Of a DNA stretch of 64,000 bases, positions 7,701 through 62,900 are shown piece after piece. A program made the position numbers and the translations under genes. Every line of letters starts with the position of its first letter. Position 1 is the first letter of the stretch. The stretch spans positions 2,728,001 through 2,792,000 of the forward strand of contig CM052820.1 in NCBI GenBank assembly GCA_028534125.1. The letters run 5' to 3'. The stretch is from Lama glama. Its lineage: Eukaryota. The notes under the pieces are model-generated. The model was not told the DNA's origin. It made no database searches and was given only the letters and a program-made list of their open reading frames with translations.

Positions 7701-10700
7701 TAGTTTCAGGTGAAAAGGATGTGGTGTTTCTGATTGATGGCTCTGACGGTGTCCAGAGTGGCTTCCCTCTGCTGAAAGAGTTTGTCCAGAGAGTTGTGGA
7801 GAGCCTGGATGTGGGTCCGGACCGGGTGCGCGTGGCTGTGGTGCAGTACAGTGACCGGACCAGGCCCGAGTTCTACCTGAACTCGTACATGGACAAGCAG
7901 AGCGTGGTCAGTGCCATCCGCAGGCTGACCCTCCTGGGAGGGCCCACCCCCAACACTGGGGCCTCCCTGGACTTCGTGCTGAGGAACATCCTGATCAGCT
8001 CTGCGGGCAGCAGGATCGCAGAAGGCGTGCCGCAGCTCCTGGTCGTCCTCACCGCCGACAGGTCGGGCGATGACGTGCGGGGCCCCTCGGCGGTGGCAAA
8101 GAGGGGAGGGGCGGTGCCCATCGGCATCGGCATTGGGAACGCCGACATCACCGAGATGCAGACCATCTCCTTCATCCCGGACTTCGCAGTGACTATTCCC
8201 ACCTTCCGGCAGCTGGGGACCGTGCAGCAGGTCATCTCAGACAGAGTGACCCAGCTCAGCCGTGAAGAGCTGAGCAGGCTGCAGGCATCTTTGCTGTCCA
8301 CACTGAGCCCAGGTGAGGAGTGGGTTCCTGACCTCTCTGTGCCTTGAAATCCCTGGGGCTCCTTGTTTGGACCATGGGTTACAAAGCATTCTCAGTTCTG
8401 TTTTGGTAACCATGTGGCGTGAGAACTAGAGTCATGTGATGAGTTAGGAACCACGTGGCCTTGGTGGCCAGAAGGGGCAGAGGCTTGGGGAGATGCTAAG
8501 GTCCAAAACCTGTCTGGTTGCAGGAGTCCTGGCTCAGGGTGCACGTGGAGGCCCCGGTGTTCCTGGGAGACGCTGTGGGCCTTCGGAAGTGCTGTGTGTG
8601 TGCAGTTCCTTTACTTTAGGCACGAGCACATGTTTCCCCTGGTCCGTCTGCTCTCCTGCTCTTCAAAATGACTATTTTCCACCTTCTCCTCCTGCTTGAT
8701 GCCTCTCTCCCTCTGCTGACTCTGAGCCGGTGATCTTGATTCTCATTTCACTGAGAAAATAAAAGGCAACTGGAAGATAACTTCCAGAAGCGCCACTCGG
8801 TCCCTGCTGGCATCAGTGTCCCCGTCTCAGCTTCCCTCCTGTTCCTCGGGTGAACCGTCTCCTTCCCCGGCAGCCTCTCCTTTCCCCCCTGCAACTCTCC
8901 TCTCTCCCGCATCCTCAGTTCTCTGATGGGCCAGATGACTCTCCGTGATACAAGCACAGTGCCTTTTCTCCTCTTTTAAAAACTCCCTCGATGCCCTGCT
9001 CACCCCCAGGCGCCCCCCCAGTCTCCTTTTTAAAGCGCTGTCTTTACTGCCTACAACTCCCTCTGGACCCGCCCTAGCCTGCTCACTGTCCCTGCTTCCC
9101 AGAAAGCGCTCTGGTCAAGGTCCATCTGGCACATCCTAGCGGTCAGTTCTCAGACCCTGTCTCACTTGATCTGAGTGTCGTCTGTCACAGCTGAGAGTCC
9201 CTCCTTCCCAAAACAGCAGCCCCACTTGGTCTCAACGTGGCTCTAGTTTCTTCCGCCTGCGGAGTTTCTCTTCCTTACCCTCTGCTGGTTCCTCTTCTCC
9301 TCTCTGACTGTAATCACTGAAATTCCCGGGACTCTCCTGGGACTGGTGTTTTAACTGAACACCGCAGTCTGAATCAGGAAGCCGTACCCATCAGGTTGTG
9401 AGTCTGTGACTAACTGTGATTCTGTGACTAAGAATTGGGTGCCAGTGAAGGTGGCGCTTATGATCACGGTGGGTTCACAGGTTTCGGCGGCAAGAGGGAT
9501 GTGGTCTTTCTCATCGACGGGTCCCAGAGTGCTGGCCCTGAGTTCCAGTACATCCGTACCTTCATCGAGAGGCTGGTTGACTATCTGGACATAGGCTTCG
9601 ACAAGACCCGGGTGGCGGTCATCCAGTTCAGCGAGGACCCCAGGGTGGAGTTCCTGCTGAACGCCCACTCCAGCAAGGACGAGGTGCAGAATGCGCTGAG
9701 GCGGCTGCGGCCCAAAGGTGGGCGGCAGATCAACATTGGGGGTGCCTTGGAGTACGTGTCAAGGAATATCTTCAAGAGGCCGCTGGGGAGCCGGATTGAA
9801 GAGGGCGTCCCTCAGTTCCTGGTCCTCATTTCCTCCGGGAAGTCTGACGACGAAGTTGACGACTCAGCAGTAGAACTCAAGCAGTTTGGCGTGGCACCAG
9901 TTACAATCGGAAGGAACGCAGACCCGGAGGAGCTGGTGAAGATCTCCCTGAGCCCCGAGTACGTGTTCTCAGTGAGCACCTTCCGGGAGCTGCCCAGCCT
10001 GGAGCAGAAGCTGCTGACCCCCATCACCACCCTAACCTCGGAGCAGATTCAGCAGATCTTGGCCGCCAGCCGCTTCCCTCCTCCAGGTAAGACCAGGTGT
10101 TTGTTCTTCTCCGTTGTCTTTCCTGAACATGAAAAATCACAGGCTCAAAGTCCATGCTTCTCAAAAGTACAATCGAAGTAACGGGCCACCCGTGATTGAA
10201 CCTGTGGGTCCACAGCTGGACGCAGGGAGGAGGACGCACACGGTGGGCAGCCACCGGGCATCTCAGCCAGAGGGTGTTAGAAAAGGCTCAGCACAGGATT
10301 TGGACTCATCATAGGTGATTTTGCGGAAGGCTTGAGGAAATGGGACTTTGCCCTGAGTGCGTGCCGTCAAGATGGGCGAGTCATCCTGTGAGTGAGATCT
10401 TACCGCATCTCATGGCTAAAGCCGTAATGGGTAAAGGAGCGGTGGCCACTGATGACCCAGGGTGGAGGTGTTCGGTTATTTTTGTCTTCTTTTGGTCAGT
10501 GTTCAGATACGATTACAGCGTGGCTTTCTCTGATGTCAGTGTTCTGTGAAGTCTGTGGTGCTCCACGAGGGAGTCCATGGCCTGGCCGTGAGGTGCCGGG
10601 CCAGCTTTTCTCCTTCTCAACATAAATGGTTCAACTCCATTTGCTTAGCTTTTACTGTGCTGTGTTTCCACTATAAGCAGCCAGTGATTTCTGAGGCAAA

Positions 10701-31700: not shown

Positions 31701-34700
31701 CAAGCTGCCCGAGGGCTGGAGCCTTTCACGTAGTCCCTGAAAACTTCCACCTCCTTCCTTCACAGTGGAGGTGTCTGCATTTGTCATCATTGTTGTTTGT
31801 TTTGTTTTTGTATTTTTTAAAAACACTTCCCTTCTGATACCTCAGTAGAGAAAAGAGCTTTGGAGATTTAGAGCAACGAGAAACTGTTAAAGCAGGTTTC
31901 ACGTGGAACTCTGTGTCACCTAGGGTGTATCGAAATTTGCCTTTACAAATTCCTGGTGTAGGTTTGTTTGAGGTTTGTGTAGAGGACGAATGAAAGAGAA
32001 CAAATTTTAATACCTCCCAATTGCATCTTGTGGGAGGGGTACAGTGCGGCAGACGGCGGTTTGGGGGTTGCTCTCTTTGGTCTGCAAAACCCCCAAGGGA
32101 GCTGCCGATTCATGGCTTAAACCTGACTTCTGCCCCTGCTGCCTGGGTGCTTCTGCAGTCCTTCCACACCTCTTCATTACGAAGGTCTTTGCTTTCTGGC
32201 TTGGCTTTTTTTCCCTGTATTATCTCCTTACGTTGAAGTTGATGAGGTTCAGGAAAGAATGGAAAAGCTAACCCAGGAAATGGAGAATCACCCTTAGGAG
32301 GAGCGGTTAAAGGCTTAGACTGTCAGGCCCAGGGGGAGAAGGCAGAGCCAGGTGTTTAAGCGAGGGAAGGCTTTAGCGGAGATGGTTAGCCGGCTGCAGC
32401 GGGAGCCGGGCAGGGCAGCCCGATGGAAAGATGCTCGCCTGCCCAGGAGGCGCCTGCATGACCCTCAGGCGCCACACACTGGGATGAGATGCCAAGGGCA
32501 GCCACGGGTGTATCCACAGAGTGGAAATCAGCCAGGACGCTTTAGACCTGGAGCCCACAGGGTAGCTAAGTGGCTCCTGGGTGTCCCTCCTGCCACAGGA
32601 GGCGGGAGGCCAGCAGGCGAAAGGAAGCTCTTCTCACAGGAGAAGCAGGGTTTAGACTCAAGCTCAAATGTGTGATTTATGTTGATCAGTGACGAGCTTC
32701 CCAGTTTCCAGGGCGTGGGGCTACTCTCCTTACGGGGGAAACACTGCTGTCCTCAGAGCCTTCTGTCTCTTGCTCTTTGAGCAGCCAAGTCAGACGTACA
32801 GGGAGAGCCTGTGAACCAGCAAGGCCGGGGCGGGGGGCCCGTCTTGTTCCTCTGTCATGTGTCTGTGGGGTCCAGGCGCCCTGCGCGTCTGCGGGCTCTC
32901 AGCCTCCCGTTCCTGTTTTGCAGGGATACAAAGGCCCCAGAGGCGACTCGATGGACGTAAGTTGCATGTGTGCTGCATGAGCCCTTGCCCTGGGAGCCGT
33001 CTGCCCACTCTCCTCACATCTTCTTTCCTTTCCTTTTTAAGCAATGTGCCCTGGTGCAGAACATCAAGGATAAATGCCGTAAGTACACGATTTCCTGTCT
33101 GCGACGCCTCTTTGTTCTCACACCTGGAATTCCCGCTGGGTAGACCCGGCTTTCACGCTCCTCTTTGTTTGTCTTCTAGCTTGCTGCTACGGTAAGTCGG
33201 TTCAGTCGTTCGGCTTTCTCCTGCGGAAGGAACGAGATCCTTTTCCAGTAAGTAGTTTGTCTATGAAACTCCCCACTTCCCACAGGGCCCCTGGAGTGCC
33301 CTGTCTTCCCGACCGAGCTGGCCTTTGCCTTGGACACATCGGAGGGGGTCACCCAGGACACGTTCAGCCGGATGAGGGATGTGGTCTTAAAGATCGTGGG
33401 CGACCTGACCATCGCCGAGAGCAACTGCCCACGGGGGGCCCGTGTGGCCGTGGTCACCTACAACAATGAGGTGACCACGGAGATCCGCTTTGCCGACTCC
33501 AAGAAGAAGTCTGTCCTCCTGGACAAGATTAAGAACCTGCAGGTGGCCCTGACGTCCAAGCAGCAGAGCCTGGAAACAGCCATGTCCTTCGTGGCCAGAA
33601 ACACGTTTAAGCGAGTGCGGAATGGATTCCTTATGAGGAAGGTGGCCGTTTTCTTCAGCAACAAACCCACGAGGGCATCCCCGCAGCTCCGGGAGGCCAT
33701 GCTCAAGCTCTCAGATGCTGGGATCACGCCCCTGTTCCTCACGAACCAGGAGGACCGCCCGCTGCTGAACGCCCTGCAGGTCTGTGCTCCGGGCGTCTGC
33801 ACCACTCTTGCTGCATCTTGGGCTCTGAGAGGATGTTCAGCCACACCTGTGTCCCAATTCCACCCCCACCCCACCCACGGAGCCTCTCAAAGCTTCCAGG
33901 TGGCTCTGAACTGACTGAGAATCTCACTTGTGAGATTTCCAGAGCAGCCTGATGGCTCCGGCCCTGGATGGGCATCCAGATGCCCGTGACTCACCCCCAC
34001 CAGGTCCCTCCTCGCATCGTGGTGGAGACTCTCCCAGGTTGACCCTGGAGACCCACCGTCTCCTAGGGAGGTCCTCCAAACATCAGCGAGCCCAGCACCC
34101 GAACTGTGGCCCTGTCAAGCATTTCTCAGCCAGGCTGAGAAGTCCAACAATTAGACAGGACTTTGAAGCAAATGGCAAGGAAGTGCTTAGCTTCAGTGGG
34201 TGAAGCAGTGAAGTGCATTTTTGTCATTTGCTTCAATGACTTATTTAATGGTCACGGTAATATGTGTAATAATTGGTTAATGAATCTATTAATGTTCACT
34301 GAGCTGTCCACACGGGTGGATGCTGGGCGGGAGGGAGAGCAGCAGGCTGAGGACCAGCCGTGAGGGGGTCTGGGCTCCAGTCCCAGTCCAGCCACCTTCT
34401 AGCGTTAAGCTGCTGAAATTAGCATGGCCACGTCACTTCCCCTTCTGTGTCGCAGACTTCTCCCCTGTTACAGACGAAAGAGGCGGTGGAGGGGGCGGGG
34501 GCGAGATGGTCCCTAATGTCCTGCCTCCCAAACAGGATGTTCTATGGCTTTACCGCTGCCCTGGCAGCAAGAGACAGTCGGATCACTGCCGCCATCTCTC
34601 AGGGTTTATTCTGCCAACTGCAGGCCAGTTTGAGCGCTGGGCTTGGCTCTCCGGCTTGGGCTACCAGCCGAATGCTTCTGTAAGGAGCTCACGGACGTAC

Positions 34701-37700
34701 GCCTCCCCTTGTGAGCGCTCGGTGACCCAGGAGCATGCGTCTTTCTTGACAGAATAGTTTCAGCAAGTTCAAAAAGTTAATCATTCATTCATTCATGCAA
34801 TTTAATCATTCACTGAAGGAATAATCAGTGATGGTGTCCCGGGCTCTGTGGTGGGCAGGACCTTTTGAATCTTCTGGAAGTGATTTCCTGACTTGCTCGG
34901 TGGTTACACCCCTTTTTAGACCTGGGAAGGTGGGAGAGGGGTGGGGCCAACATTTGCTAGTTGCTATTATTATTGCTATAAATAACGACAACATTTAGGT
35001 CTCCGCTGTTTGCTAGAGGCCATACCACATGCGTTACCTACGTTATCTGATTTCATCCTCCGAGTAACTTCATTGGGAATTTACCGTTATCTCCATCTTG
35101 CGGCTGAGGAAACTGAACCCCAGAGAAGTTAAATAGTTTTGCTTCAGGTCTGGCAGAAGGCGCAGGAGTGGGGTTTCAACTCCAGCTCACTCGTTGGAAG
35201 AAGGCATACGTTTTCCTATTATAATCAGTGCCTTCCCTCCTAATGCCTCTTCTAAGAAAATGAGAAGATACTGATCTTTTGATGCGACTCTAATGCATTC
35301 GTTAGCTGTACTTTCACATGGTTACTTACCATGTGTACTCCCGCTGAGCATTTCCTCTTGTTTAAACCAGATCAACAACACGGCAGTGGGGCACGCGCTT
35401 GTCCTGCCCGCGACGGGAGACCTCACGGACTTCCTGAAGAACGTCCTGACTTGTCACGTCTGCTTGGGTGAGGTGCTTCTCCAGGAGGCAGATCTGTCCA
35501 GCTGCGACTGTGCAGCATACCGTCCACAGAGAGACGTTTGAGGGGACAAGCGTCATGTGTACGATGAGCCTGAGTTAAATGAGGATTCACAGAGCCTTGT
35601 ATTTACCCCTGTAAATACTGCATAAGCAGTTTCCACACTTAAAGTGGGCTCCCCAGAACAGCTTCTCTTTGATAGGGGAGTGACTAGATTTCTAGGTAAT
35701 AAGGGAGAAAGTGGGCTCTGCTTGTGTTTTGACCTTGGAGCCCAGAATTTATTTGGCTATGACTTTCTGGAACACATTCCTTCAAGGAGTGGCAATGAAG
35801 TAAAAAAAATTCTTTCCTTTTCTCCTCTTCTCTTCCTCCCTCCCCTCCCACCATCCCACCTCCCCTTCTTCTCTCTTCTCCTCCCTCCCTCTCTGCCGAT
35901 GGTGTAGGATACTAACACAGATTTTAGCTTACTGACCTGTTTCCTCTAGTAAGTGCTGGGTGATGAAAACTGAGACGTGGCCCCAGCGATGTCAGCAAGG
36001 TGTAAATCGCTTTCTATACGATGTGACCGTTCTCATTGCCCCCGACTCCTGTGATCTGATGTGCAGTGTCTCGCTGCGGGAGTCACAGAGTAAATGGGCC
36101 ACCATGCTTCTTTCCAGACATCTGCAACATCGACCCCTCCTGTGGATTTGGCAGCTGGAAGCCTGCCTTCAGGGACCGGAGAGCAGCGGGCAGCGATGTG
36201 GACATCGACATGGCTTTCATCTTAGATAGCTCTGAGTCCACCACGCCGTTCCAGTTCAACGAGATGAAGAAGTACATAGGGTACCTGGTCAGACAGCTGG
36301 ACGTGAGCCCAGACCCCAAGGCCTCCCAGCACTTCGCCAGGGTGGCGGTCGTGCAGCACGCGCCCTACGAGTCCGCAGGCAACGCCAGCGTGCCGCCCGT
36401 GAAGGTGGAGTTCTCCCTGACGGACTACAGCTCCAAGGAGAAGCTGGTGGCCTTTCTCAGCAGCAGGATGACCCAGCTGCAGGGGACCAGGGCCCTGGGC
36501 AGCGCCATCGACTACACTGTCGAGAACGTCTTTGAAAGCGCACCCAACCCACGGGACCTGAAGATCGTGGTCCTGATGCTGACGGGCGAGGTGCCGAAGC
36601 AGCAGCTGGAGGCGGCCCAGAGAGCCATCTTGCAGGCCAAGTGCAAGGGGTACTTCTTCGTGATCCTGGGCATCGGGAGGAAGGTGAACAGCAAGGAGGT
36701 GTATGGTTTCGCCAGCGAGCCGAACGACGTCTTCTTCAAACTCGTGGGCAAGTCGACCGAGCTCAACGAGGAGCCGCTGCTGCGCTTCGGGAGGCTGCTG
36801 CCCTCCTTCGTCAGCAGTGAGTCCTGGAGCACTCGGCTCCCGGGGCAGGGCCGCGGGCGGGGGGGCCACGGGCGTGGGGGCCGCAGCTGCTGTGCTGACC
36901 TTGGCCTGTTCATTCCCACCGCGTCCCAGACACACTGTGAGGAGCCGGGGTTGGCAGTAGACACAGATGGGGGTCCTGTCCTTGTTCACTCGTTTATTCA
37001 GCCAAACTTGGCCAGGGACCTCCCAGCCATGCTGTGTGCCTGGGAGCTTCCAGTCTAGGTGGGCAAAGGGGTCAAGTGCACATTTATCATGCACGACGTA
37101 ACGTGCTGGTGCGTCATACTGAAGTGTGCCCTGATGGGGCATCAGGGAGGCTTCCAGAAGGCACCGTTGGTCTGGGCTTGGCCGCCAACCCCAGGCTTGA
37201 AACCTCTGGACCTTTACCCACATGGCTCTGCCTCCTGGAAATGTTCTCCACCCCCTTGCTTTAGCAGCAAATCCACCTTCATCTTCAAAGATTACCCCCA
37301 GTTGCCCTGTTCACTGTGGATGGTCCCCACACCCAGGGCCTGCTCTTCTTTAACCTGGTACTGGCCTCACCACAGCTGTTCCATGGCCTGTTGGTCAGCC
37401 CTTTGTGGGTCTGTGGTCCCAGGACACCACACGTCCCGGAGAAGGTGTACCATTCGCCACCACTTTCTCCAGAGTCAGCACAGGAAAGTATTGGACAAAT
37501 GAGGGAGATTTATAAAGGATGAACTGCCCCCTCCCTCCAAAGTTTTAAGGAAAATAATATAAAGCAGAGGTGGGCCAGCATGTTCATGCAGGGCCACAAT
37601 GACTGTCCACAGAAGGTTAAAAACAAAAACGTTGTTAAACAGCACTGAGAAAGTGCTAAAAGTAATTGGATTATAATTTGGTGTTCAGGAGTTTGGAACC

Positions 37701-49700: not shown

Positions 49701-52671
49701 TCTTTGAATAGCGTGAGGCCCTGCTTAGTGTGTTTCTCTTGGTTCCCCATGTAATGGCGCCCTTATGTTCCATGAGCAGACCTTACAGGTCTTGGCAGTG
49801 ACTCCCCCTGGGATAAAGGAGATAAAATGCGAGAGCACTAGTTGGGTCCTGGAGAGTTATGCTGAAGATCACAGGCAACTGGAAAAGCCAGTCAGGGAGC
49901 TGTGCTCCGCTGTAGGGCTGCCTCCAGGCTGGGCGTCCTGGGTCTGCGGAGCCTTCTCCTGTCTCTTCAGAAGAGCACAGGGGAGAAGGGAGCAGAGAGC
50001 TCAACACGGATGGCCAGGACAGAGTGCACCTGGAACAAACACAGGCCACTGGGGGATGCTCTGGGGAAGAAAGGGGACAGGTGGCGGCAACCCCTTGGTC
50101 TGGGTCTCATGCTAACGGGGGACCCACCGGTGCACAAGGGGTCTGCTTTGGTGGTTGAGTGAGCTTGCCTTGCTCAGCACCTCCATGGCGACGTCAAAGC
50201 CCAGCGCCTCCCTCAGTTGTCGGCCTATTTGGGAGGGAGGAAGAAAGTTGTTTTTGTAAATTGCCATCATTTTATCCTGGCTTTATTGGGTCTTCAAAGG
50301 CTCTTGGTAGCACTGCTGGCTTCCTGGGCCTCAGAGAGGGTCTGCAACTAGGAGATGTTGTAGTTGTGGGGCCACCTTCCTCGTGCGTGGGTGACGGCCT
50401 CCCCAAGGCCAGCGATTTAGACCAATTCTGAGCCTCAGGCCTGTGCCTGTGAGTCTGGCCCCTTATGGATGACCGAGCTTGGCTTTTCTACCCCAAGAGC
50501 CAGATTCTCCTTTTATTCCCCAGTGCCAACCAGCACTGCAGACGCTAAGCACCCCTGCCACCCACGCAGCTGGCCCAAAGGCGCCCGGAGGCGCCAGCCC
50601 CGCGTGGGGAGGGCTGGTGAGCCATGCACGGTAGTTACTCGTAAACACGGAGCGTTGCCCACTCTGGGGGTTTCGTTCTACCATTTCAGACTTTCAGATA
50701 GCGGTCGCCGTGAACGCGTCTCTTTCCCAGCACAATCTGGAGTTTGCCAGAGAGCTCTGTAAACAGCAGTTTCACTGTGTGAGGGCTGTAAACCGTTCTT
50801 TCCAGGCATTGTGGAGAATGTAGCTTTTACTCTGCAGCTGGGCTACATCAGAAGCATGATTTAAAACATAAACTTCCTTAACTGGACAAAGAATGCTTCT
50901 CTGTCTTCAGAATAGCTCTGCTGTGTGAGATTTTCGCTGCCATGAATTTTACATCAGAGTTAGCACTTCTTTTTACTTGTTCAGTTTGGCCAGTCAGCAA
51001 GGCAGCAGGCGGTACACACAGACACAGACACACGCATCTGCGTGCGCACACTCATAAAGGATCTCCTTTTTCCACTTTGACTTTTAATTTTCTTTGATTT
51101 TTAAAATTTTTTAGGAGGGGGGGTAATTGGGGCTTTACAAAATTTATTGATTTATCTCTAGTGGAGGTGCTGGGGATCGAACCCAGGACCTTGACACATG
51201 CTAGGCACACACCCTACCACTGAACTCTACCCTCCCCCGGTCCACTTTGACTTTTATTTTTAATCTTCTTGGCTTGTTGGGAAATGGGCAGCCTTATTTT
51301 TGAACTACATTGTGACAAAACTTAATTGCTATTTTGCCAACGAGTAGAAAACTCCAGTGTTTTAGAATTTGGTTACTTCTTCACAGATTTAGCGTTGAGG
51401 GATTTGGAGAGTAACTGACCCAGTGATTGGAAAGGGGAAAACACAGTTCATCTCAAATTACCCAGGAATAACTGCTACCACGTGGGGCTCTGAGTGCACT
51501 TTTTGAAGTCCTTTCATCGATGCGATTGTGTTCAGTGCTCTCAAAGCTGAGAGCCTCGTGTCCACGTGACAGTAAGGACACAGGCGTGAGGAGGTCGTGA
51601 AGTTCCCCTCCGACAGCACGGTGACTAGACCTTCAGCCCTGGAGCTGGGAGCCCGGTAGCGTGCATGTTCTAACTGACACTTTTTTCTCCTCTTGTTATT
51701 CAAGATATATGTCAGTTACAAAAAGAAGAAGGGACTTGCAGGAAATTTATTTTAAAGTGGTACTATGATTCGAAGACTAAAAGCTGTGCGAGGTTCTGGT
51801 ACGGAGGCTGCGGTGGAAACGAAAACAGATTCAATTCGCAGAAAGAATGTGAAAAGGTCTGCGCTCCTGGTAAGTGATTCTGCTTTTGTGCTGGTGGTTT
51901 TCCCAAATAGGATGAGCGCTCCAGGCCAGCAATTCACCTCCCAAAGACATTTGAATCACAGTGACTATGACAGGTTTGAAAAAGGAGACACACTGTGTCT
52001 TCAGATGAGGCAGGTATTCAGGTAAAACACATGACAGCTGCTTTCTGAGTTTTAGAATTTCCTAAAAAGTCCTTGTATTTTTGCCGGTGAGGAAACGTGT
52101 GGCCGACCACGCCTCACTCTTCAGAAATGTTACTAAGTTTCTGTTATTCATAAAATATTGCAACAAACATGGTGATTGGGAAAATAATATAATGAGCAAT
52201 TATGGACACCACCACAGATAAAGAGCCCCTATATGGTCTATTCATCTTGAAATAATTTTGCTTCCTCTAACAACGTTGACCCCGGGGCCGTCCATCACAC
52301 CGGCCAGCGTGATTGGTAATAAAATCAGAACAGCTTCACAGACAGCCCGAGGCCAGTGCCAGATGGGAGAGTTGGGTGTGCTTAAGGCCAGGCAGGTGAT
52401 GCCAGCCGAGAGAGAGTGGGCTCAAATGGTACAGACAGCCCCAAACCCCAGGCCAAGAAGCTCTGGGAGAACCATTGTAGGAGCTGAGCTGAAAGGTGAG
52501 ATTGGTGATGAAAGCCAGAGGCCATGGGATCATTTTCATGTGAAACACAGTGTCCTTTTGGGTCCGTAATGTGGCTTCTCCCCTCCTCTTCCCTCCCGCC
52601 CTCACCCGCCGCCCCTCCATCCACGCCCAGTGCCTGTCAACCCCGGAGTCATCGCTGCGATGGAGACCTAA
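1522..52671 (+). CDS. COL6A3: Collagen type VI alpha-3 chain, 5'-partial spliced CDS (exons 5-44, human numbering; exons 1-4 lie upstream of the window)
   Basis: 40 GT-AG exons with compatible phases give one open frame: tandem VWA domains, Gly-X-Y helix, VWA C1/C2, K/P-rich C3, FN3, Kunitz, stop TAA at 52669-52671. The peptides are recognisable as COL6A3. Confidence 0.99.
3748..4347 (+). CDS. COL6A3: COL6A3 exon 6, VWA N7 (600 nt; known cassette exon in other mammals)
   Basis: ctgcag|TTCATGCA ... CAGCCAG|gtaatg; [14 protein letters not shown]... Confidence 0.97.
4687..4752. repeat. (GA)n imperfect microsatellite
   Basis: Direct reading. Confidence 0.9.
5695..6267 (+). CDS. COL6A3: COL6A3 exon 7, VWA N6 (573 nt)
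   Basis: ttgcag|AGAGCAAG ... ACACCAG|gtaagg; [15 protein letters not shown]... Confidence 0.97.
7165..7642 (-). mobile_element. MaLR solo LTR (MLT1-like), boundaries approximate
   Basis: Typical MLT1 motifs: gctgtgttaacaaa...gtggtttaaaac...ttttagaggtcagaaatc...aaggacacatga...ggatcatc...ttaatttaatcac...ggggccactatcccaccca. Confidence 0.7.
7704..8312 (+). CDS. COL6A3: COL6A3 exon 8, VWA N5 (609 nt)
   Basis: ttctag|TTTCAGGTGAAAAG ... AGCCCAG|gtgagg; [14 protein letters not shown]... Confidence 0.95.
9481..10086 (+). CDS. COL6A3: COL6A3 exon 9, VWA N4 (606 nt)
   Basis: tcacag|GTTTCGGC ... CCTCCAG|gtaaga; [15 protein letters not shown]... Confidence 0.96.
11428..12042 (+). CDS. COL6A3: COL6A3 exon 10, VWA N3 (615 nt)
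   Basis: ccgcag|CGGTGGAG ... CGGCCAG|gtatga; [15 protein letters not shown]... Confidence 0.97.
12956..13044 (-). mobile_element. tRNA-derived SINE (Vic-1-like, camelid)
   Basis: T-rich tail, then ggaggtcctgggaattgaacccaggaccctgcacatgct...ctgagctgtaccccc (reverse B/A box); imperfect TSD ccat(t/c)atttctttt. Confidence 0.8.
13364..13963 (+). CDS. COL6A3: COL6A3 exon 11, VWA N2 (600 nt)
   Basis: tttcag|AGAAAAAG ... TCCAAAG|gtaagc; [15 protein letters not shown]... Confidence 0.97.
14599..14936 (+). CDS. COL6A3: COL6A3 exon 12, VWA N1 part 1 (338 nt)
   Basis: tgacag|CCTGTAAT ... GTGAAG|gtgagc; [13 protein letters not shown]... Confidence 0.96.
15267..15291. repeat. (CA)n microsatellite
   Basis: Direct reading. 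Confidence 0.9.
15292..15815 (-). mobile_element. MaLR solo LTR (MLT1A/B-like)
   Basis: ggctgccatgacaaagtaccac...ctggaggctggaagtcc...aaggacgtcagtcatgttggatgaggcccactctaatggcctcatttaacttaatt...gggacacagctcagcc. Confidence 0.8.
16073..16151 (+). CDS. COL6A3: COL6A3 exon 13 (79 nt)
   Basis: cttcag|GTGATC ... CAGGAAG|gtaagt; [26 protein letters not shown]. Confidence 0.95.
17158..17303 (+). CDS. COL6A3: COL6A3 exon 14 (146 nt)
   Basis: ccacag|GCGTCC ... CAGCTT|gtgagt; [12 protein letters not shown]...ELAEQL. Confidence 0.95.
18529..18621 (+). CDS. COL6A3: COL6A3 exon 15, start of triple helix (93 nt)
   Basis: cggcag|GACAAC ... CCGAAG|gtatgg; [31 protein letters not shown]. Confidence 0.96.
18803..19050 (-). 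mobile_element. LINE-1 3' end fragment (cetartiodactyl type)
   Basis: ttgaagtacagtcagtttacagtgtcgtgccagtttc...ttataggctactataggatgctgactagagttctctgtgct; same family as 58605-59000 and 63441-63831. Confidence 0.8.
19356..19409 (+). CDS. COL6A3: COL6A3 exon 16 (54 nt Gly-X-Y)
   Basis: tttcag|GGGATT ... GGACCT|gtaagt; [18 protein letters not shown]. Confidence 0.96.
20391..20462 (+). CDS. COL6A3: COL6A3 exon 17 (72 nt; helix Cys and NGT sequon)
   Basis: ccacag|GGTGAG ... GTCAAG|gtagag; [24 protein letters not shown]. Confidence 0.96.
21109..21135 (+). CDS. COL6A3: COL6A3 exon 18 (27 nt)
   Basis: tcctag|GGCTCC ... GAGAAG|gtactt; GSRGFPGEK. Confidence 0.94.
21243..21287 (+). CDS. COL6A3: COL6A3 exon 19 (45 nt)
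   Basis: tcacag|GGTGAA ... GAAGAT|gtaagt; [15 protein letters not shown]. Confidence 0.95.
21407..21460 (+). CDS. COL6A3: COL6A3 exon 20 (54 nt)
   Basis: tggcag|GGAGAC ... AGAAGG|gtaagc; [18 protein letters not shown]. Confidence 0.95.
21919..21981 (+). CDS. COL6A3: COL6A3 exon 21 (63 nt; RGD motifs)
   Basis: atttag|GGTGAC ... GACCCG|gtaagg; [21 protein letters not shown]. Confidence 0.95.
22555..22620 (+). CDS. COL6A3: COL6A3 exon 22 (66 nt; helix interruption 1)
   Basis: tttcag|GGTGAC ... CCCATG|gtacag; [22 protein letters not shown]. Confidence 0.95.
23064..23117 (+). CDS. COL6A3: COL6A3 exon 23 (54 nt)
   Basis: cgccag|GGTCTC ... AAAAGC|gtgagt; [18 protein letters not shown]. Confidence 0.95.
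23346..23456 (-). mobile_element. Very short LINE-1 3' end insertion with target-site duplication
   Basis: aattgaagtatagttggtttataatgttgtgttagtttctggtgt; TSD ctgaacagaca at 23335-23345 and 23457-23467. Confidence 0.8.
25418..25453 (+). CDS. COL6A3: COL6A3 exon 24 (36 nt)
   Basis: cctcag|GGCGGC ... GCTAAG|gtaagc; [12 protein letters not shown]. Confidence 0.95.
26034..26096 (+). CDS. COL6A3: COL6A3 exon 25 (63 nt)
   Basis: tcaaag|GGCAAC ... GCACAG|gtcagt; [21 protein letters not shown]. Confidence 0.95.
26155..26535 (-). mobile_element. Ancient L1M (L1MB/MC-like) 3' fragment
   Basis: tctagtttcaaaacgttttcatcatcccc...ctggcaaccactgatttcctttctgtc...taaatggaataatg...tgtgtctggcttcttgcactgagca. 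Confidence 0.8.
26596..26658 (+). CDS. COL6A3: COL6A3 exon 26 (63 nt)
   Basis: ctccag|GGACCA ... CCCCGG|gtaagt; [21 protein letters not shown]. Confidence 0.95.
27925..27987 (+). CDS. COL6A3: COL6A3 exon 27 (63 nt)
   Basis: ctccag|GGAAGC ... AGAAAG|gtttgt; [21 protein letters not shown]. Confidence 0.95.
28178..28217. repeat. (TTTTA)n simple repeat
   Basis: Direct reading. Confidence 0.85.
28329..28391 (+). CDS. COL6A3: COL6A3 exon 28 (63 nt)
   Basis: gtctag|GGTGAG ... GAGACG|gtaaga; [21 protein letters not shown]. Confidence 0.95.
29845..29895 (+). CDS. COL6A3: COL6A3 exon 29 (51 nt; helix interruption 2)
   Basis: tcttag|GGAGAC ... AAAAAG|gtatgt; [17 protein letters not shown]. Confidence 0.95.
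30094..30129 (+). CDS. COL6A3: COL6A3 exon 30 (36 nt)
   Basis: ttgtag|GGAGAA ... CCAAAG|gtaaat; [12 protein letters not shown]. Confidence 0.95.
30185..30385 (+). mobile_element. MIR SINE fragment
   Basis: ggatcttggctctagtcttgggtc...ctgggaaag...tctgtcagatggcgatga...gatgaaatgaaatga...actttgtaaac. Confidence 0.55.
30548..30610 (+). CDS. COL6A3: COL6A3 exon 31 (63 nt)
   Basis: tcccag|GGTAAC ... CGAAGG|gtaagt; [21 protein letters not shown]. Confidence 0.95.
31615..31677 (+). CDS. COL6A3: COL6A3 exon 32 (63 nt)
   Basis: ttctag|GGAAAC ... CCAGCT|gtaagt; [21 protein letters not shown]. Confidence 0.95.
32924..32956 (+). CDS. COL6A3: COL6A3 exon 33 (33 nt; end of helix)
   Basis: ttgcag|GGATAC ... 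ATGGAC|gtaagt; [11 protein letters not shown]. Confidence 0.94.
33042..33078 (+). CDS. COL6A3: COL6A3 exon 34 (37 nt)
   Basis: tttaag|CAATGT ... AATGCC|gtaagt; [12 protein letters not shown]. Confidence 0.94.
33180..33191 (+). CDS. COL6A3: COL6A3 exon 35, 12-nt microexon (PCCYG)
   Basis: ttctag|CTTGCTGCTACG|gtaagt; supplies PCCY in KDKCPCCYGPLECP. Confidence 0.92.
33286..33779 (+). CDS. COL6A3: COL6A3 exon 36, VWA C1 (494 nt)
   Basis: ccacag|GGCCCC ... CTGCAG|gtctgt; [20 protein letters not shown]... Confidence 0.96.
34985..35190 (-). mobile_element. MIR SINE fragment
   Basis: ttatctccatcttgcggctgaggaaactgaaccccagagaagttaaata (MIR core). Confidence 0.7.
35371..35467 (+). CDS. COL6A3: COL6A3 exon 37 (97 nt)
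   Basis: aaccag|ATCAAC ... TGCTTGG|gtgagg; [13 protein letters not shown]...CHVCL. Confidence 0.95.
36118..36816 (+). CDS. COL6A3: COL6A3 exon 38, VWA C2 with RDRR furin-type site at 36171-36182 (699 nt)
   Basis: ttccag|ACATCT ... GTCAGCA|gtgagt; [36 protein letters not shown]... Confidence 0.96.
38005..38107 (+). CDS. COL6A3: COL6A3 exon 39 (103 nt)
   Basis: ctctag|GTAAAAAC ... ACAAGT|gtaagt; [34 protein letters not shown]. Confidence 0.94.
38270..38790 (-). mobile_element. MaLR LTR (older MLT1 subfamily)
   Basis: ttttgctgtgtaacaagctacctgaaacatagtggatcaacacaacaact...gttctattggccaaagcatgtc...agcctagctggattcaagagtgggga. Confidence 0.65.
40299..40849 (+). CDS. COL6A3: COL6A3 exon 40, Lys/Pro/Ala/Thr-rich C3 domain (551 nt)
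   Basis: taacag|AAGTGTT ... TCCGTGG|gtaaga; [20 protein letters not shown]...KPATAKSV. Confidence 0.94.
40426..40710 (+). repeat. Coding 15-nt tandem repeat (KPxAx pentapeptides) with 30-nt higher-order unit
   Basis: 19 in-register pentamers; 40501-40680 forms six alternating (K/R)P[V/A/M]xx / KPExx pairs. Confidence 0.9.
42148..42411 (+). CDS. COL6A3: COL6A3 exon 41, fibronectin type III domain C4 (264 nt)
   Basis: ttccag|TTAAGG ... AGTACAA|gtaagt; [27 protein letters not shown]... Confidence 0.96.
43491..43589 (+). CDS. COL6A3: COL6A3 exon 42, C4-C5 linker (99 nt)
   Basis: ctctag|AGAAAA ... GAAGCAG|gtgagt; [33 protein letters not shown]. Confidence 0.93.
51087..51240 (-). mobile_element. 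tRNA-derived SINE (Vic-1-like, camelid) with 16-bp TSD
   Basis: ggaggtgctggggatcgaacccaggaccttgacacatgctaggcacacaccctaccactgaactctaccctcccc; TSD tccactttgactttta at 51071-51086 and 51241-51256. Confidence 0.88.
51705..51869 (+). CDS. COL6A3: COL6A3 exon 43, Kunitz/BPTI domain C5 (endotrophin core, 165 nt)
   Basis: ttcaag|ATATAT ... GCTCCTG|gtaagt; [55 protein letters not shown], six Cys in Kunitz spacing. Confidence 0.97.
52631..52671 (+). CDS. COL6A3: COL6A3 exon 44 coding part with stop
   Basis: gcccag|TGCCTGTCAACCCCGGAGTCATCGCTGCGATGGAGACCTAA; [13 protein letters not shown]. Confidence 0.94.
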
Positions 52672-52836
52672 GCGTGGCCCACCGGTGACACATACCTCTT
52701 GAAGCAGAAGGAGGCAGCCATGGCAAGTCGTCTCTGTAGGAGCTCTGGGTATAGATTCCCGCGCACTCTGTACCATTTCATGCTTTGATTTACACTCAGA
52801 CTTGGGAGGACCCGTCTGCCGCATGACCTATCAATA

Positions 52837-52844
52837 TGGTGCTA
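52837..52844 (+). promoter_or_regulatory. miR-29 family 8mer target site
   Basis: TGGTGCTA in the 3'UTR; miR-29 repression of collagen mRNAs is well established. Confidence 0.8.
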
Positions 52845-53415
52845 AATGTGTCTGTGGACCCAACGCTCTCTGTCTCCAGGCAGTTATATCGTATACTTTG
52901 AACGTTGTGTAACAGTTATCCACTGCTGGTGTTTATGTGAACAGTCCTATAAACTCAAATTCCTTCTGGAGTTTCACCTGATGCCTGCTTCAGGCAAGTG
53001 TAAGGTCTAGAAAATAACCCCAAATTTCACAGTTACTCTGTATGCTTCTGCTTGTTTCATCTTTTTCCCTCTTAATTAAGCATGACTTTAGATGGAAAGC
53101 CTGTGTATGGAGGATAAACCAGAGTCCAGCCTTTTCATTCCCTCGTCCCCTGATTTCCTGGATTAGATTTCTAGCTGGTTTTCTTTTTCTAAAGCTTCTA
53201 ACAGACGATCTAGAAGTTAGAAGGAAGCAAAATCCCTTAATCTTTGTGCACTGTCGTGGGACCATGCCTCAATTAAAGAATGAAAAGAAAATCATCACAG
53301 AGAACATTTCTGGCATTCCTCTAATGTTGTGTGTGTGTTTTAATTTTTTTTTTTGTGCAGGGGGGTTTAATTTTAATTTTAAAAATTTTAGGAAATTTAT
53401 ACAAAGAAACTTTTT

Positions 53416-53421
53416 AATAAA
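53416..53421 (+). terminator. Polyadenylation signal AATAAA
   Basis: U-rich upstream element, AATAAA, then GU-rich gtgttgtgggtttggtgttc about 15-35 nt downstream. Confidence 0.88.
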
Positions 53422-54754
53422 GTATATTGAAAGTGTTGTGGGTTTGGTGTTCTTGGCCATGTTGTTTCTGTGTCAGCATCGCCCCTGGGCCAGGGAGGTG
53501 GGGCCCCGCCCGGGTCCAGGACCCTGGGTACCACCCTTTGATTTCCAGGGAAGGGGCAAGAGAGCCCCATCAGACAGTGTGCGGGAGGCCAGGTGGACCC
53601 AGCCTGGGTGGGTTGAGTTCCTTACTGAGGGTCCTCAGAGTCTTCCTGGTCTTAGGAACCAGGCTGGCTTTCCTCCTTTCTAACTTCTGGTTGGGTCCCA
53701 GAGACCTGGCCCCCTTCTCAGCCTCTTTAAAATGATTGTTCCCCGGGCACTGCGTTTGCTCCCACTCACGCTGGCCGAGAGAGGACGTATAGTCGGCCCA
53801 GGACTCCCCTCCCCTTTTCTGGAGTCTCAAAGACGGAGCATCAAGTTCTTTTTTTCTTGAGAGAGCCTTTCCCTCCGGTCTTCGGAAATAACACAAGAAA
53901 CACATACATAAATATTTAGGTGGGACCTGAATTCCACTTAAAGAGGAAACTGGGTTTGTTTGACAAAACACATCTCTTCTGTCAAGCGCTTCTTGCTGGG
54001 AAAGCTACAGGGACCTTGGGCGTGGGCAGGACTGTTGCACGGAGGATGGGGGATGAATCTGACAGTTACTCTAATGATGGGGAGAGAGGAGGCGGGAGAA
54101 TGGGTGGGGCCAGGGAGATGAGGGGAGACTGGGTGGTCACAAAGAGCACTCCCTGGGATTTCCACCCAGACCTTTGGGTGCAACTTCTAAATTCACAGAG
54201 GCACTCAACGTCTGTGCATTTGCACAGAAACTGGAGGAAGAACTGAGCTTTGTGTCAGAATCAGCGCGACAGAGTTGTAGACAAAGGGCAGAGACGGAAG
54301 TGGGGTGTGGGCAGAGGAGGCCGCTGCTGGAATCTGCAGAGATCTGGGGGAGGGCTCGGGACTTCACAATCCATGATGTCGGGGATCTGATGTCTGCTCT
54401 GTAGGTCATGCTGACCCTCTCCCCATCTTTCAAGGGCTCCCTTTTCTAGATGAGGCTAACCCAGTGGACCTACAGAGAGCCCCATGATGGATATGAATTC
54501 CTTTGCAATGGATAATCCACCTGGGAGGGAAATGTGCATTCTGCGACTTTCTCAGTGACAGCTTTCCACCCCAAAGCTCTCCAGCCCCAGAGGAAGAGCC
54601 CTCTGCTTGAACAGGCCTGCCTCCATCCTTGCAGGCTGAGTGCAGCCAAGCCAAGTTCATCCCATTGGCGCAAAGAAACGTGTGTAGCTGGGCTAGGAAA
54701 GGGGGCCTCACTGGTGAAGGGGGTGGGACAAAACCCACGGAACAGCCAGTGAAC

Positions 54755-58604: not shown

Positions 58605-59000
58605 TTTTTTCTCTTCTTTTTTCTTTTATTTCTTTTCTTTTCTTTTTTACTGAAGTATAGTCAGTTCACAACGCTGTGTCAGTTCCTGGTGTGCAGCACA
58701 ATGCTCCAGTCATCCATGCACACACATGTATGCATTTACAGATTCTTTCTCATCAAAGGTTACCACAGGATACTGAACACAGTTCCCTGTGCTCTACCAA
58801 AGCAACTTGCTGTTCACCCATTTTGTATTCAGTAGTTAGTATCTTCAGATCTCGAGCTCCCAATTTATCCCCCCTCCCCCTTTCCCCCGGTAACCATAAG
58901 TTTATTTTCTACATCTGTGCATCTGCTTCCGTTTTGTAAATAAGTTCATTTGTGTCGTTTTTAAGGATCCACCTGTAAGTGAGATCATCTGGTATTTCTT
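58605..59000 (-). mobile_element. LINE-1 3' end (cetartiodactyl type)
   Basis: T-rich tail, ctgaagtatagtcagttcacaacgctgtgtcagttcctggtgt...ggtaaccataagtttattttctacatctgtg...gtaagtgagatcat. Confidence 0.85.
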
Positions 59001-59699: not shown

Positions 59700-60920
59700 G
59701 CTAAATCATTCAACCACTCACTCAACAAATGATTGTTGGGCCCCAGTGTGCCAGGTATCACACAAGGCATCGGGACACAGGGGTGAACCATGCACGTTCC
59801 CTGCCCGCGTGGGCAGACCTCTCAATGAGCGAGGGTGAGGCAGCGAGGGGAAAGGACCTACCGCTGGGGTTAAGGTAAGCCTTTTGAGGAACTGATTTAT
59901 GAGTCAAAACCCCAAAGGCAAGAGAGAGTCAGCCATGGGGAGACCTGAGGGAAGAGGATCCCAGGCCGGGAGCAGGGCTGGGTCAGAGGTTCTTCTGAGT
60001 CTGACAGGTTGAGTCTGGCACGTTGCAGAAATCGCAAGCTGGCCAGTGGGGCTGGAGCCAACACAAGGGGCGGGGGAGTTTCAGGAATTGCAGCCCTGGA
60101 TGGAGAAGGCGGAGGAGATGGAGGAGAGAGGATGGGTTTGCACCTATTTTGGGAGCAGAGTCAGTAAGATGCTGATGACTTAGGCCCATGGGTAAGGAAA
60201 AGGACTTAAATGGTTGATGAGATGCCTTTTACGAAATGAAGAAAAGTGAGGGAGAACTGGTGATTGGGCGTGCCATTCGCCTTTTTAGAACTGGGTGGTA
60301 AGATCAGGAGTTCTCCAGTGTGCATTTTAATTTGGGGTGACTATTCAGCTTCCAAGTGGCAATGTTAGGAAGGCAGCTAAAGCTCCAGGGAGTGTCTGCG
60401 ACTGGATTTGGCAGTCTGGGGACAATATGATATTTTAAGCCGTGAGTCCAAATGAGATAACCCAGTTTGTGAACGTAGATAAAGAAGGGAAAGGAGGTCA
60501 GAATGGGTCCCTCAGCACACCAACAGTTAGAGGTTGAGCCGAGGAGACATGCCCAGCCGAGGAGTCCGAGACGGAGCATCGGGGGCAGTTAGCAGAGAAC
60601 CAGGACAGGTATGGTCTGGAGTCACACCGTCCGGGTTCAGAACCCACCTCCACCACTTACAAGCTGTGCCCTCAGGCAGGTTATTTAACTTCTCTGGGCC
60701 TCAGTTTCCAAGAACGCAATATTAAGACAATAGTCTTTACCTCCTAGGGGAGGAGAATGCATACAAAATTCTGAGAAAAAAGGCCTGGAATAAATAAATG
60801 TTAGACGTTAAAAAAAAAAAAAAAAAGAAGAGAACCAGGAGAGAATGGGATCTTGGAAAGCATGAAAAAAAGTGCTTCAAGAAAACAGCGTGTGCCGCTG
60901 TGCTGAGTGAGGCTGAGAGG
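59700..60920 (-). mobile_element. Degraded LINE-2 with nested MIR (about 60612-60800)
   Basis: cattcaaccactcactcaacaaatgattgttggg...ccaggtatc (L2 3' end), gatcaggagttc...aggcagct...; MIR core gctgtgccctcaggcaggttatttaacttctctgggcctcagtttcc. Confidence 0.6.
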
Positions 60921-61884
60921 CGGGCAGGGGAGACCCGAGAAGATGGGTGCGGATACGGACCTGTGCATCAGATGCCCTCGGCAGCCAGGAAGTGAAACCC
61001 CGTCTTGAATCGGCTTTGCCTGTGAAGGTTGTTTTTCATTCCCACCTCACAGGAAAGCCAGAGCGTGGGCTGCGGGGCTGGTCCGTCAGATGGCTGAATG
61101 ACGCCACCAAGGACCCAGGTTCTCCTCAACTTTCTGTGCTATTTGCAGTGTGGGCTCCACCCTCGGGCTGGTAAGGAGATGGTCCCATTCGGATATGGCA
61201 ATATTTAAAGGAAAAAGAAGACCATCTCTGTTGGTGGCTCTGGGGAGTAAGAGAGCGTGCCCCCTTCCTCGGAATTCCAGTGCTCAGAACTGGCTCAGGG
61301 GGCCTTTCCTAAGCCAGTCATTGGCAAGGTGACGGACACCACTTAGACAAACCAGCCCATCTCCGTTTGGACCCAGGGTGTGAAGGTCAGCGAGGCCTAG
61401 TCGGGGGATGTGGGCTGACCGTATCCATGGCTGTGTGTGCACAGGTTGTGTGCACATCCAGGACGCAGGGAGCTGTGCTGTTCCACAAACCGTGCGCAGT
61501 TTGCCCAACGGAACACGCTTTACTCTTCTAAATTAACTAGATATTTTCCAAAGAAAAACCAGAACAGCAGAAACAAAGCTATACAGTTTGGGTTAAAGAG
61601 AGCACTTGAGCTAATAGGACTTGTATTTCCTGCCTGTTGTGGTTCCCTCACTGTGGCCCAGGACAAGCCACGACTGGCAGCTGCCTCAGTGGGACACCTG
61701 CTTTGCTGCGTCTCTCGACGTGGACCCTGGTGGAGCGCCCGACCCTCCAGGTAACACCTAATCCCCACCTTCTTGATTTTCTGGTGGTCTTCACTCACCC
61801 CGGGGCCAGAGCTAGTGCTTGGGACCCACGGTGATGCTTGGGGAACAGTATAGTGGGGGCGCATGCATTCAGGGCTGTGCAGAA

Positions 61885-62900
61885 TGACGTCAGGAACGCC
61901 TCCATCTCTGTTTTCTTGTACTTTAGGGGCACAAGAGGGCTTTGATGGTAGTGTACTTGGCCCTTATTTGCACACGATAAATGGTTTGTTGAATTTCCCA
62001 CTCCATCAAGGGGACTTACGCTGCTCCCGATAAGACACAAGTTTAGAACAACAAACATTACCATTTCCAGAAACAAAACCTCAAGCATGTTTTATACTAT
62101 TCAGAATAAAGGTCCCAAATTAGGGTAGCTTCTAATTCTGTTCTGTTCTACCCTATTCATTGTGTGCCGTCCTGGAATACATTCAGGAACCTGTTTCTGC
62201 GGGATCGCCCTGGGGACTGTCCGCGCCGAGGACGGGGTCTGTTCAGCATCCAGCTCCAGCCAACAGGCCAAACAGCTTTGATTTGTAAAGTAAATGTCTG
62301 AAGGGAATTTATACAGGCGGCGCTCAGGTCCTCCCACAAACGAATCCCCCAGGGCTGGTCCCTCCTCCAAGGACCCGCCAGAAAGCGAGAAAGCGCGCAC
62401 ACGGCTCGAGTCCTGTCCTGACGGGGGTTTCAAAATAAAAGCCCGCTGCCACATCAAGGATGCTCCCCGGGGGTCCCCGTCGGGTCACTGGTCCCAGAGA
62501 GCGCCCCAGGATGGAAACTCGCCGTGCTCCGGGGTCCGCGCGCCTGTCCCCGCAGCCGGCAGGTCCGACATCCTCGCGCCTTTTAAGGACAGGCGCGGCC
62601 GCCGGCTCCCGCCCGCACCCGGACCCCCCCCCGCCCCCCGGGCGCCCGCCGCGGGGCGCGGCCGGGGCTGAAAATAGCGCGCGGGGCGCGAGGCTCGGCC
62701 CCCGCGGCGATCTCCTCCGCCCGAGCAGAGGGGAGCCGGCTGCTGGGTCTCACGGAGACTCTGATTCCCTTGTTTGGCAGAAGCTGTCACTCAGACCCCT
62801 CTCCCAATTAATTTTGGGTTTTTGGAGCAGAGCCCCGCCAGCCTGGGGCTCCCAAGGCCACGCCCTCCTGACATCGGGGCACGCGCCTTCCCAGGCATCT
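61885..62900. promoter_or_regulatory. CpG-rich candidate enhancer/orphan CpG island with CRE, CArG and MEF2-like motifs
   Basis: TGACGTCA 61885-61892; perfect CC(A/T)6GG at 62115-62124 and 62579-62588; CTGAAAATAG 62668-62677; dense CpGs about 62200-62900. Confidence 0.6.

What the first reader, a model, noticed from the sequence alone, without database searches (positions are those of the whole stretch)
61885..62900. Candidate SRF/MEF2/CREB enhancer in an orphan CpG-rich island about 9 kb downstream of COL6A3
Seen: within about 800 bp of non-repeat DNA there is a palindromic CRE (TGACGTCA 61885-61892), a one-mismatch CArG (CCTTATTTGC 61962-61971) and two perfect CArG boxes (CCAAATTAGG 62115-62124, CCTTTTAAGG 62579-62588). 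Two MEF2-like A/T islands (TTCAAAATAA near 62429-62438, CTGAAAATAG 62668-62677) sit inside very GC/CpG-rich sequence, and no coding exon is associated. Established: CArG/SRF plus MEF2 is the classic smooth-muscle and myofibroblast enhancer grammar, matching the cells that make collagen VI. Inference from memory, to be verified: a human coronary-disease/endotrophin-level variant (rs11677932) lies at a similar distance downstream of COL6A3 and was reported to affect a MEF2 site, so this may be the orthologous element.
Basis: partly seen in the sequence, partly recalled or inferred. Interest (0 to 1): 0.7.

Follow-up and report, generated by a model that had tools for sequence, protein, structure and literature searches.

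The report
CpG-island enhancer candidate behind COL6A3
A CpG-rich patch about 9 kb past the end of the collagen VI gene COL6A3 carries one MEF2-like and one SRF-type binding motif, and is likely this mammal's counterpart of a human artery enhancer already tied to a heart-disease variant, so it is probably a known element seen in another species.

Summary
All six motifs are where stated. A real CpG island spans 62156-62888, the densest in the window. Only CArG 62579 and the two MEF2-like sites lie inside it. In its 300-bp core the only two A/T runs are that CArG and GCTGAAAATAGC (62667); 0 of 3000 shuffles give both (region chosen after the fact). RNA contigs of a ~95% identical relative keep the CRE, CArG 62115 and MEF2 62429 but lose the one-mismatch CArG, a CpG-decay accident. 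Core CpGs rarely decay (1 of 38 against 9 of 35). Human rs11677932 lies 8,699 bp past COL6A3; the island lies 8.72-9.45 kb past it. Orthology rests on distance and synteny only: no human alignment, no chromatin data here. Unexpected: one run holds a spliced, + strand RNA whose intron spans the island. Verdict: likely a MEF2-driven COL6A3 enhancer of a known kind; the SRF/CREB grammar is weaker than claimed.

The parts
62156..62888 (.). Non-promoter ('orphan') CpG island; core 62476-62775
   Evidence: GC 0.66, o/e 0.85, 67 CpG; core 43 CpG/300 bp, densest of the window; CpG transitions against a relative 1 of 38 in 62401-62685 versus 9 of 35 outside
62667..62678 (+). MEF2-like 12-mer GCTGAAAATAGC, best candidate functional site and predicted counterpart of the human rs11677932 motif
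   Evidence: one mismatch to KCTA(W)4TAGM (recalled); 2 of 3000 core shuffles; C, T and A letters unchanged in run X7, deduced from counts by kind of change; link to the human variant is inferred
62579..62588 (.). Perfect CArG box CCTTTTAAGG inside the island core
   Evidence: 4 of 3000 core shuffles; the same 10-mer on the other strand is SRF-bound at Dmpk intron 1 (PMC5289827); state in the relative unresolved
62429..62438 (+). Weaker MEF2-like 10-mer TTCAAAATAA
   Evidence: unchanged in runs X2 and X3; a common class of match
62115..62124 (.). Perfect CArG box CCAAATTAGG on the island's shore
   Evidence: unchanged in runs X1 and X2, next base 62125 differs
61962..61971 (.). One-mismatch CArG; rejected as a functional part
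   Evidence: 61969 T>C and 61970 G>A in X1 and X2: TG here, CA there, the pattern of one old CpG decaying both ways (inference)
61885..61892 (.). Palindromic CRE TGACGTCA, 270 bp outside the island
   Evidence: only one in the window, 2 in 163 kb; unchanged in X1 and X2
60900..61750 (+). Exon (start not found) of a spliced, apparently non-coding RNA; GT donor at 61751; the intron spans the island
   Evidence: two loose ends of run X1 at this donor match sequence just behind AG acceptors at window-scale 64425 (L002) and 91479 (L004); longest ATG frame 45 codons in 60811-61750; 1 of 4 runs laid
51707..53440 (+). COL6A3 Kunitz exon, last exon and poly(A) signal (AATAAA 53416): the likely target gene's 3' end
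   Evidence: match to the collagen alpha-3(VI) Kunitz domain 1knt, E 3.9e-31

Best explanation
This is a CpG island 8.7-9.5 kb past the COL6A3 poly(A) site that likely acts as a distal enhancer of COL6A3, predicted to be driven by MEF2 binding at 62667-62678 and likely orthologous to the human rs11677932 element. Shown: island, motifs, position, gene order, slow CpG decay in the core. Inferred steps: (1) the core stays unmethylated and nucleosome-poor, as orphan islands do through CxxC proteins and H3K4 methylation; (2) MEF2 binds the A/T site in the core of vascular smooth-muscle cells and fibroblasts, perhaps helped by SRF at 62579 or 62115 and CREB at 61885; (3) the element loops to the COL6A3 promoter more than 70 kb upstream and raises its output.
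For: Island and motifs. The only two A/T runs of 6 or more in the core are a CArG and a MEF2-like site; both together in 0 of 3000 shuffles. Core CpG transitions 1 of 38 against 9 of 35, Fisher p 0.005; core divergence 6 of 273 against about 78 of 1591 in the flanks, p 0.056. Human distance 8,699 bp against 8,723-9,455 here. Gene order kept: a COPS8-like exon lies on the other strand about 160 kb further on (human order in PMC12748216). The human G>A change reads C>T in this orientation (COL6A3 is on the minus strand), which fits either C of the 12-mer (62668, 62678). Human element: open chromatin and active enhancer domain in artery and fat, aortic eQTL, MEF2B motif (PMC11821532); predicted silencing strongest in smooth muscle (PMC12583710). 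36.7-78.5% of orphan islands carry enhancer-type marks (PMC11170920).
Against: No human or distant-mammal alignment was made; straight projection of the human distance lands at about 62135, beside CArG 62115 and 530 bp short of the 12-mer. No ATAC or ChIP run was among the 8 runs returned. At 4.5% divergence any 10-mer survives with probability 0.63, so 'unchanged' is weak. The CpG test falls to p 0.058 if two unlisted differences are CpG transitions. One-mismatch CArG lost; CArG 62579 possibly broken. The MEF2 site has G at the third core position where the consensus has A; a search found no paper title on this 10-mer as a MEF2 site (9 listings, none opened). Shuffles were run on a region picked for its motifs and flatten local composition. 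The 12-mer class occurs 6 times in the window. Orphan islands turn over fast between species. In human, rs11677932 has a fine-mapping probability of only 29-35%.
Confidence: 0.55

Rival explanations
1. The island is a regulatory element, but the counterpart of rs11677932 lies in the A/T-richer shore (about 61900-62150) or the island serves another target such as COPS8.
For: Straight projection lands at 62132-62139; CRE and CArG 62115 are kept in the relative; the first COL6A3 vWA exon is 71 kb away and a COPS8-like exon 160 kb away, both within enhancer range.
Against: No MEF2 match with 0-1 mismatch lies in 61885-62428; an L1-like insert of about 370 bp near 58620 (family recalled) could account for most of the offset; the human variant maps to COL6A3 by eQTL and variant-to-gene score.
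Confidence: 0.15
2. The island is the promoter of a non-coding RNA, or part of a read-through unit, with little effect on COL6A3.
For: RNA contigs cover part of the island in 4 of 4 runs laid; in X3 and X7 cover is confined to 62152-62685; three GC boxes at 62609-62722; a spliced RNA runs through the locus; many orphan islands are promoters (PMC2944787, search listing only).
Against: The spliced RNA enters from upstream of 60900, so the island is in its intron, not at its start. Runs were chosen for words that cluster in the island, contigs give no strand or start, and no silent-stretch control was obtained.
Confidence: 0.15
3. A neutral GC-rich patch near a chromosome end, with motifs that arose by chance.
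For: The window lies 2.7 Mb from the start of an 86.6-Mb contig and is CpG-rich throughout: 11 stretches pass a 500-bp island test. Scan-corrected chance of a CArG pair is 0.26. One motif is lost in a close relative.
Against: Slow CpG decay and lower divergence in the core; motif placement in the core; a match of position to a human enhancer, when only one other island of this density lies in the 70 kb examined past the gene.
Confidence: 0.15

Closest known systems
Human COL6A3 downstream enhancer at rs11677932 (chr2:237,315,312 G>A, GRCh38; PMC11821532, PMC12583710, PMC11233907)
   Same: Same gene, same side, nearly the same distance (8.70 kb against 8.72-9.45 kb); a MEF2-type motif; allele polarity fits a C of the 12-mer.
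   Different: Sequence identity not tested. The passages read name MEF2B only, with no CArG, CRE or CpG island. Human evidence is chromatin, eQTL and prediction; no reporter or CRISPRi test was seen in the passages read.
Orphan CpG island enhancers (PMC11170920; PMC4989897 and bioRxiv 2020.08.05.237768 seen as listings only)
   Same: Non-promoter island meeting length, GC and o/e thresholds, with a low-methylation signature.
   Different: Histone marks and loops untested here; the island lies in the intron of a spliced RNA in one run.
SRF-bound CArG elements of smooth-muscle genes, e.g. Dmpk intron 1 (PMC5289827)
   Same: CArG 62579 is the same 10-mer on the other strand.
   Different: The Dmpk box is conserved in mouse and human and ChIP-positive; here conservation is unresolved and binding untested. 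The two perfect boxes are 464 bp apart.

Membership tests
Orphan CpG island | At least 200-500 bp, GC over 0.5-0.55, CpG o/e over 0.6-0.65 | tested here: met
   733 bp, 0.66, 0.85
Orphan CpG island | Away from exons and promoters of known genes | tested here: met
   8.7 kb past the COL6A3 poly(A) signal; local reading frame broken in the relative; an unannotated start site cannot be excluded
Orphan CpG island | Unmethylated DNA | tested here: inconclusive
   indirect only: 1 of 38 against 9 of 35 CpG transitions, p 0.005 to 0.058
Active distal enhancer | Open chromatin and H3K27ac in the relevant cell type | not testable with these tools
   all 8 runs returned were RNA-Seq
Active distal enhancer | Short two-way enhancer RNA | tested here: inconclusive
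   contigs cover the island but give no strand or start; runs selected for this stretch
Active distal enhancer | Effect on the target gene on perturbation | not testable with these tools
   needs CRISPRi or deletion
Ortholog of the rs11677932 enhancer | Syntenic position | tested here: met
   distance and gene order
Ortholog of the rs11677932 enhancer | Sequence alignment to human chr2:237,315,312 | not testable with these tools
   no human sequence for the site in the text or supplements seen
SRF/MEF2 smooth-muscle enhancer | Consensus CArG box | tested here: met
   62115 and 62579
SRF/MEF2 smooth-muscle enhancer | Exact MEF2 consensus YTA(W)4TAR | tested here: not met
   both sites have one mismatch; lowers membership, not the chance that MEF2 binds
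SRF/MEF2 smooth-muscle enhancer | Motifs conserved across mammals | tested here: inconclusive
   one 95% identical relative only: 3 of 6 kept as listed, 1 lost, 1 probably kept (62668), 1 open (62579)

The most novel reading that the evidence does not exclude
The rs11677932 enhancer is a conserved MADS-box composite: a MEF2 site (62667-62678, the variant at C62668 or C62678) about 80 bp from an SRF CArG inside an unmethylated island. That would explain why the human variant acts in aorta but not in fat, and the island would also sit in the intron of an undescribed spliced RNA running 30 kb past COL6A3.
Probability: 0.2. Interest if true: 0.5.

Novelty: new member of a known kind. Interest (0 to 1): 0.3.

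Why it matters
If it is the ortholog, it names the exact bases to test for a variant tied to coronary disease and to blood levels of the COL6A3 fragment endotrophin, and suggests SRF as an untested partner of MEF2 there. The class of element and the human enhancer are already described, so the gain is a sharper test, not a new kind of system.

Tried and rejected
Coding exon: the GC-rich frames over the island are low in complexity, and the 125-codon ATG frame is shifted in the relative. Structured RNA: no Rfam match. Repeat origin: one match in the genome (the tool warns that this does not prove rarity). One-mismatch CArG 61962: rejected. Enhancer RNA: cover of the island in X2, X3, X7 is suggestive but confounded by how the runs were selected and by the RNA that crosses the locus; not counted as support. 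Genome-wide pattern CArG + 70-90 bases + MEF2-like 12-mer: 11 matches, control 0; uninformative, as the reversed control is another motif. Earlier findings: nothing near, nothing in relatives, one unrelated EGR1 island. Human flanking sequence: not in the main-text passages or supplements seen. Functional screens: PMC12424881 has no 'COL6A' in its main text; bioRxiv 2024.10.07.617126 has 0 occurrences of COL6A3 in the listing; their supplements were not seen. A search for COL6A3 with caQTL gave one unrelated preprint; one for read-through or lncRNA past COL6A3 gave no relevant title among 20 of 266 listed. Five perfect CArGs in 60143-73079 (P 0.001, bounds chosen after the fact) are noted, not relied on.

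Full report
Observation. The six motifs read exactly as stated. The gene upstream is COL6A3: its exon at 51707-51868 matches the collagen alpha-3(VI) Kunitz domain (1knt, E 3.9e-31) and its AATAAA is at 53416. A CpG island spans 62156-62888 (GC 0.66, 67 CpG, o/e 0.85); its core 62476-62775 has 43 CpG in 300 bp, the most in the window. In 163,304 bases examined only one other stretch is as dense (45, window-scale 85801). The CRE, the one-mismatch CArG and CArG 62115 lie on the left shore, not in the island. The stretch has one match in the genome and no Rfam hit. The species is a non-human mammal; a SINE near 51120 looks camelid-like (recalled, not tested).

Chance. All motif consensus strings are recalled. 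With the real rate (10 perfect CArG in 163 kb) some 1-kb tile holds two with probability 0.26. One-mismatch MEF2 10-mers are common (104 in the window). The stronger point is inside the core: its only two A/T runs of 6 or more are the centre of CArG 62579 and of GCTGAAAATAGC at 62667. Shuffles of the core reach the CArG 4 times, the 12-mer 2 times and both 0 times in 3000. Shuffles flatten local composition, so these figures overstate the case. The 12-mer class occurs 6 times in the window.

A close relative. The search for non-WGS Illumina runs returned 8, all RNA-Seq, with small shares; 4 of 8 were laid. They are about 95-96% identical, so another, close species (inferred). The table lists 40 of 91 differences. 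For X1 over 61724-62384 (25 of 25) and X3 over 62152-62567 (15 of 15) the lists are complete. There the CRE, CArG 62115 and MEF2-like 62429 are unchanged, and the one-mismatch CArG has two changes (TG here, CA there), the pattern of an old CpG that decayed both ways. At this distance a 10-mer survives by chance 63% of the time, so the loss says more than the keeps. For 62568-62685 I can only deduce from counts by kind of change. X7 has one G>C and one G>T unlisted, plus two uncounted differences. X2's only G>C is listed elsewhere and X2 has one unlisted difference near its contig end at 62591. The simplest reading puts the G>T on 62576, 62578, 62587 or 62588; the last two are inside CArG 62579. 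On that reading the 12-mer is intact and the CArG is broken at about even odds. CpG transitions: 1 of 38 sites in 62401-62685 against 9 of 35 in the other fully listed stretches (p 0.005; 0.058 if the two uncounted differences are CpG transitions). Divergence: 6 of 273 in 62413-62685 against about 78 of 1591 in the flanks (p 0.056). Both fit an unmethylated, mildly constrained core. The relative's indels at 62389 and 62401 shift the 125-codon frame over the island, so it is not coding.

Human counterpart. [quoted passage not shown] PMC12583710 (passages; 12 of 27 supplement files searched, no hit) gives G>A and predicts silencing, greatest in smooth muscle. PMC11233907 (passages) finds the eQTL in aorta but not in fat. 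PMC8260472 (one passage) lists COL6A3 among smooth-muscle-specific element-gene pairs. PMC6305641 (passage) gives the gene's low end as 237,324,011 (build inferred to be GRCh38) and PMC4121369 (passage) the minus strand. The distance is 8,699 bp; here the island is 8,723-9,455 bp and the 12-mer 9,235 bp past the estimated cleavage site. A COPS8-like exon lies on the other strand about 160 kb on, the order given for human, cattle, mink and rabbit in PMC12748216 (passages). G>A in human reads C>T here, which fits C62668 or C62678; this is a fit, not a test. No human sequence was available. Supplements not seen (fine-mapping and variant-to-gene tables of PMC11821532, cut when stored; files 13-27 of PMC12583710; Table XIII of PMC8260472; those of the two screens) may hold the peak bounds, the motif or a functional test.

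Known kinds. Orphan islands often carry enhancer marks and turn over quickly (PMC11170920, passages). The sequence of CArG 62579, read on the other strand, is SRF-bound at Dmpk intron 1 in gut smooth muscle (PMC5289827, passages) and was used as an SRF ChIP site in bioRxiv 857037 (passage). PMC6615180, PMC13531259 and PMC10641761 (passages) added nothing used here.

An unexpected RNA. In run X1 two loose ends start at CAG|GTAAC (61750|61751). One matches window-scale 64428 (2 mismatches in 22) and the other 91481 (24 of 24), each just behind an AG acceptor, the second with a long pyrimidine tract. So a + strand RNA is spliced across the island with introns of 2.7 and 29.7 kb. Support is one contig each, depth 2 and 3.2, in 1 of 4 runs; an unspliced contig of depth 7.9 runs on into the island. 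The upstream exon has no ATG frame over 45 codons. Its start is unknown: COL6A3 read-through or a separate non-coding RNA. It means that RNA cover of the island cannot be read as enhancer RNA.

Mechanism and verdict. Most likely (0.55) an unmethylated island keeps the core open, MEF2 binds at 62667, SRF and CREB may help, and the element loops to the COL6A3 promoter over 70 kb away (first vWA exon at window-scale -8741). Island, motifs, position and CpG pattern are shown; binding, chromatin, looping, target and orthology are inferred. Rivals at 0.15 each: another part or another target; a non-coding promoter; a neutral GC patch. It is a new member of a known kind and probably the counterpart of a published human element. 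Interest 0.3.

Noticed in passing
window 61750|61751; L002:425; L004:7479: Spliced + strand RNA with one donor and two alternative acceptors 2.7 and 29.7 kb downstream, seen in 1 of 4 runs laid; no long reading frame in the upstream exon; start unknown.
   Followed up: partly
L004:1550-2300 (window-scale about 85,550-86,300): A second dense non-coding CpG island (45 CpG in 300 bp, GC 0.81) about 32 kb past COL6A3, inside the longer intron of that RNA.
   Followed up: no
window 60143, 62115, 62579; L002:2030, L002:9079: 5 of the 10 perfect CArG boxes in 163 kb fall in 13 kb downstream of COL6A3 (P 0.001, bounds chosen after the fact).
   Followed up: partly
window 34412-34423 and 34975-34986: Two good MEF2-like 12-mers 560 bp apart within the COL6A3 gene body; the second holds an exact 10-mer consensus. 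Candidate intronic enhancer.
   Followed up: no
window 62102-62103 and 61969-61970: Double differences (CA/TG and TG/CA) against the relative mark old CpG sites that decayed in both lineages, a sign that the left shore is methylated.
   Followed up: yes
L011:5600-6070 (window-scale about -34,400): A CpG-rich patch (29 CpG in 300 bp, GC 0.70) about 25 kb upstream of the first vWA exon; relation to the COL6A3 promoter not checked.
   Followed up: no
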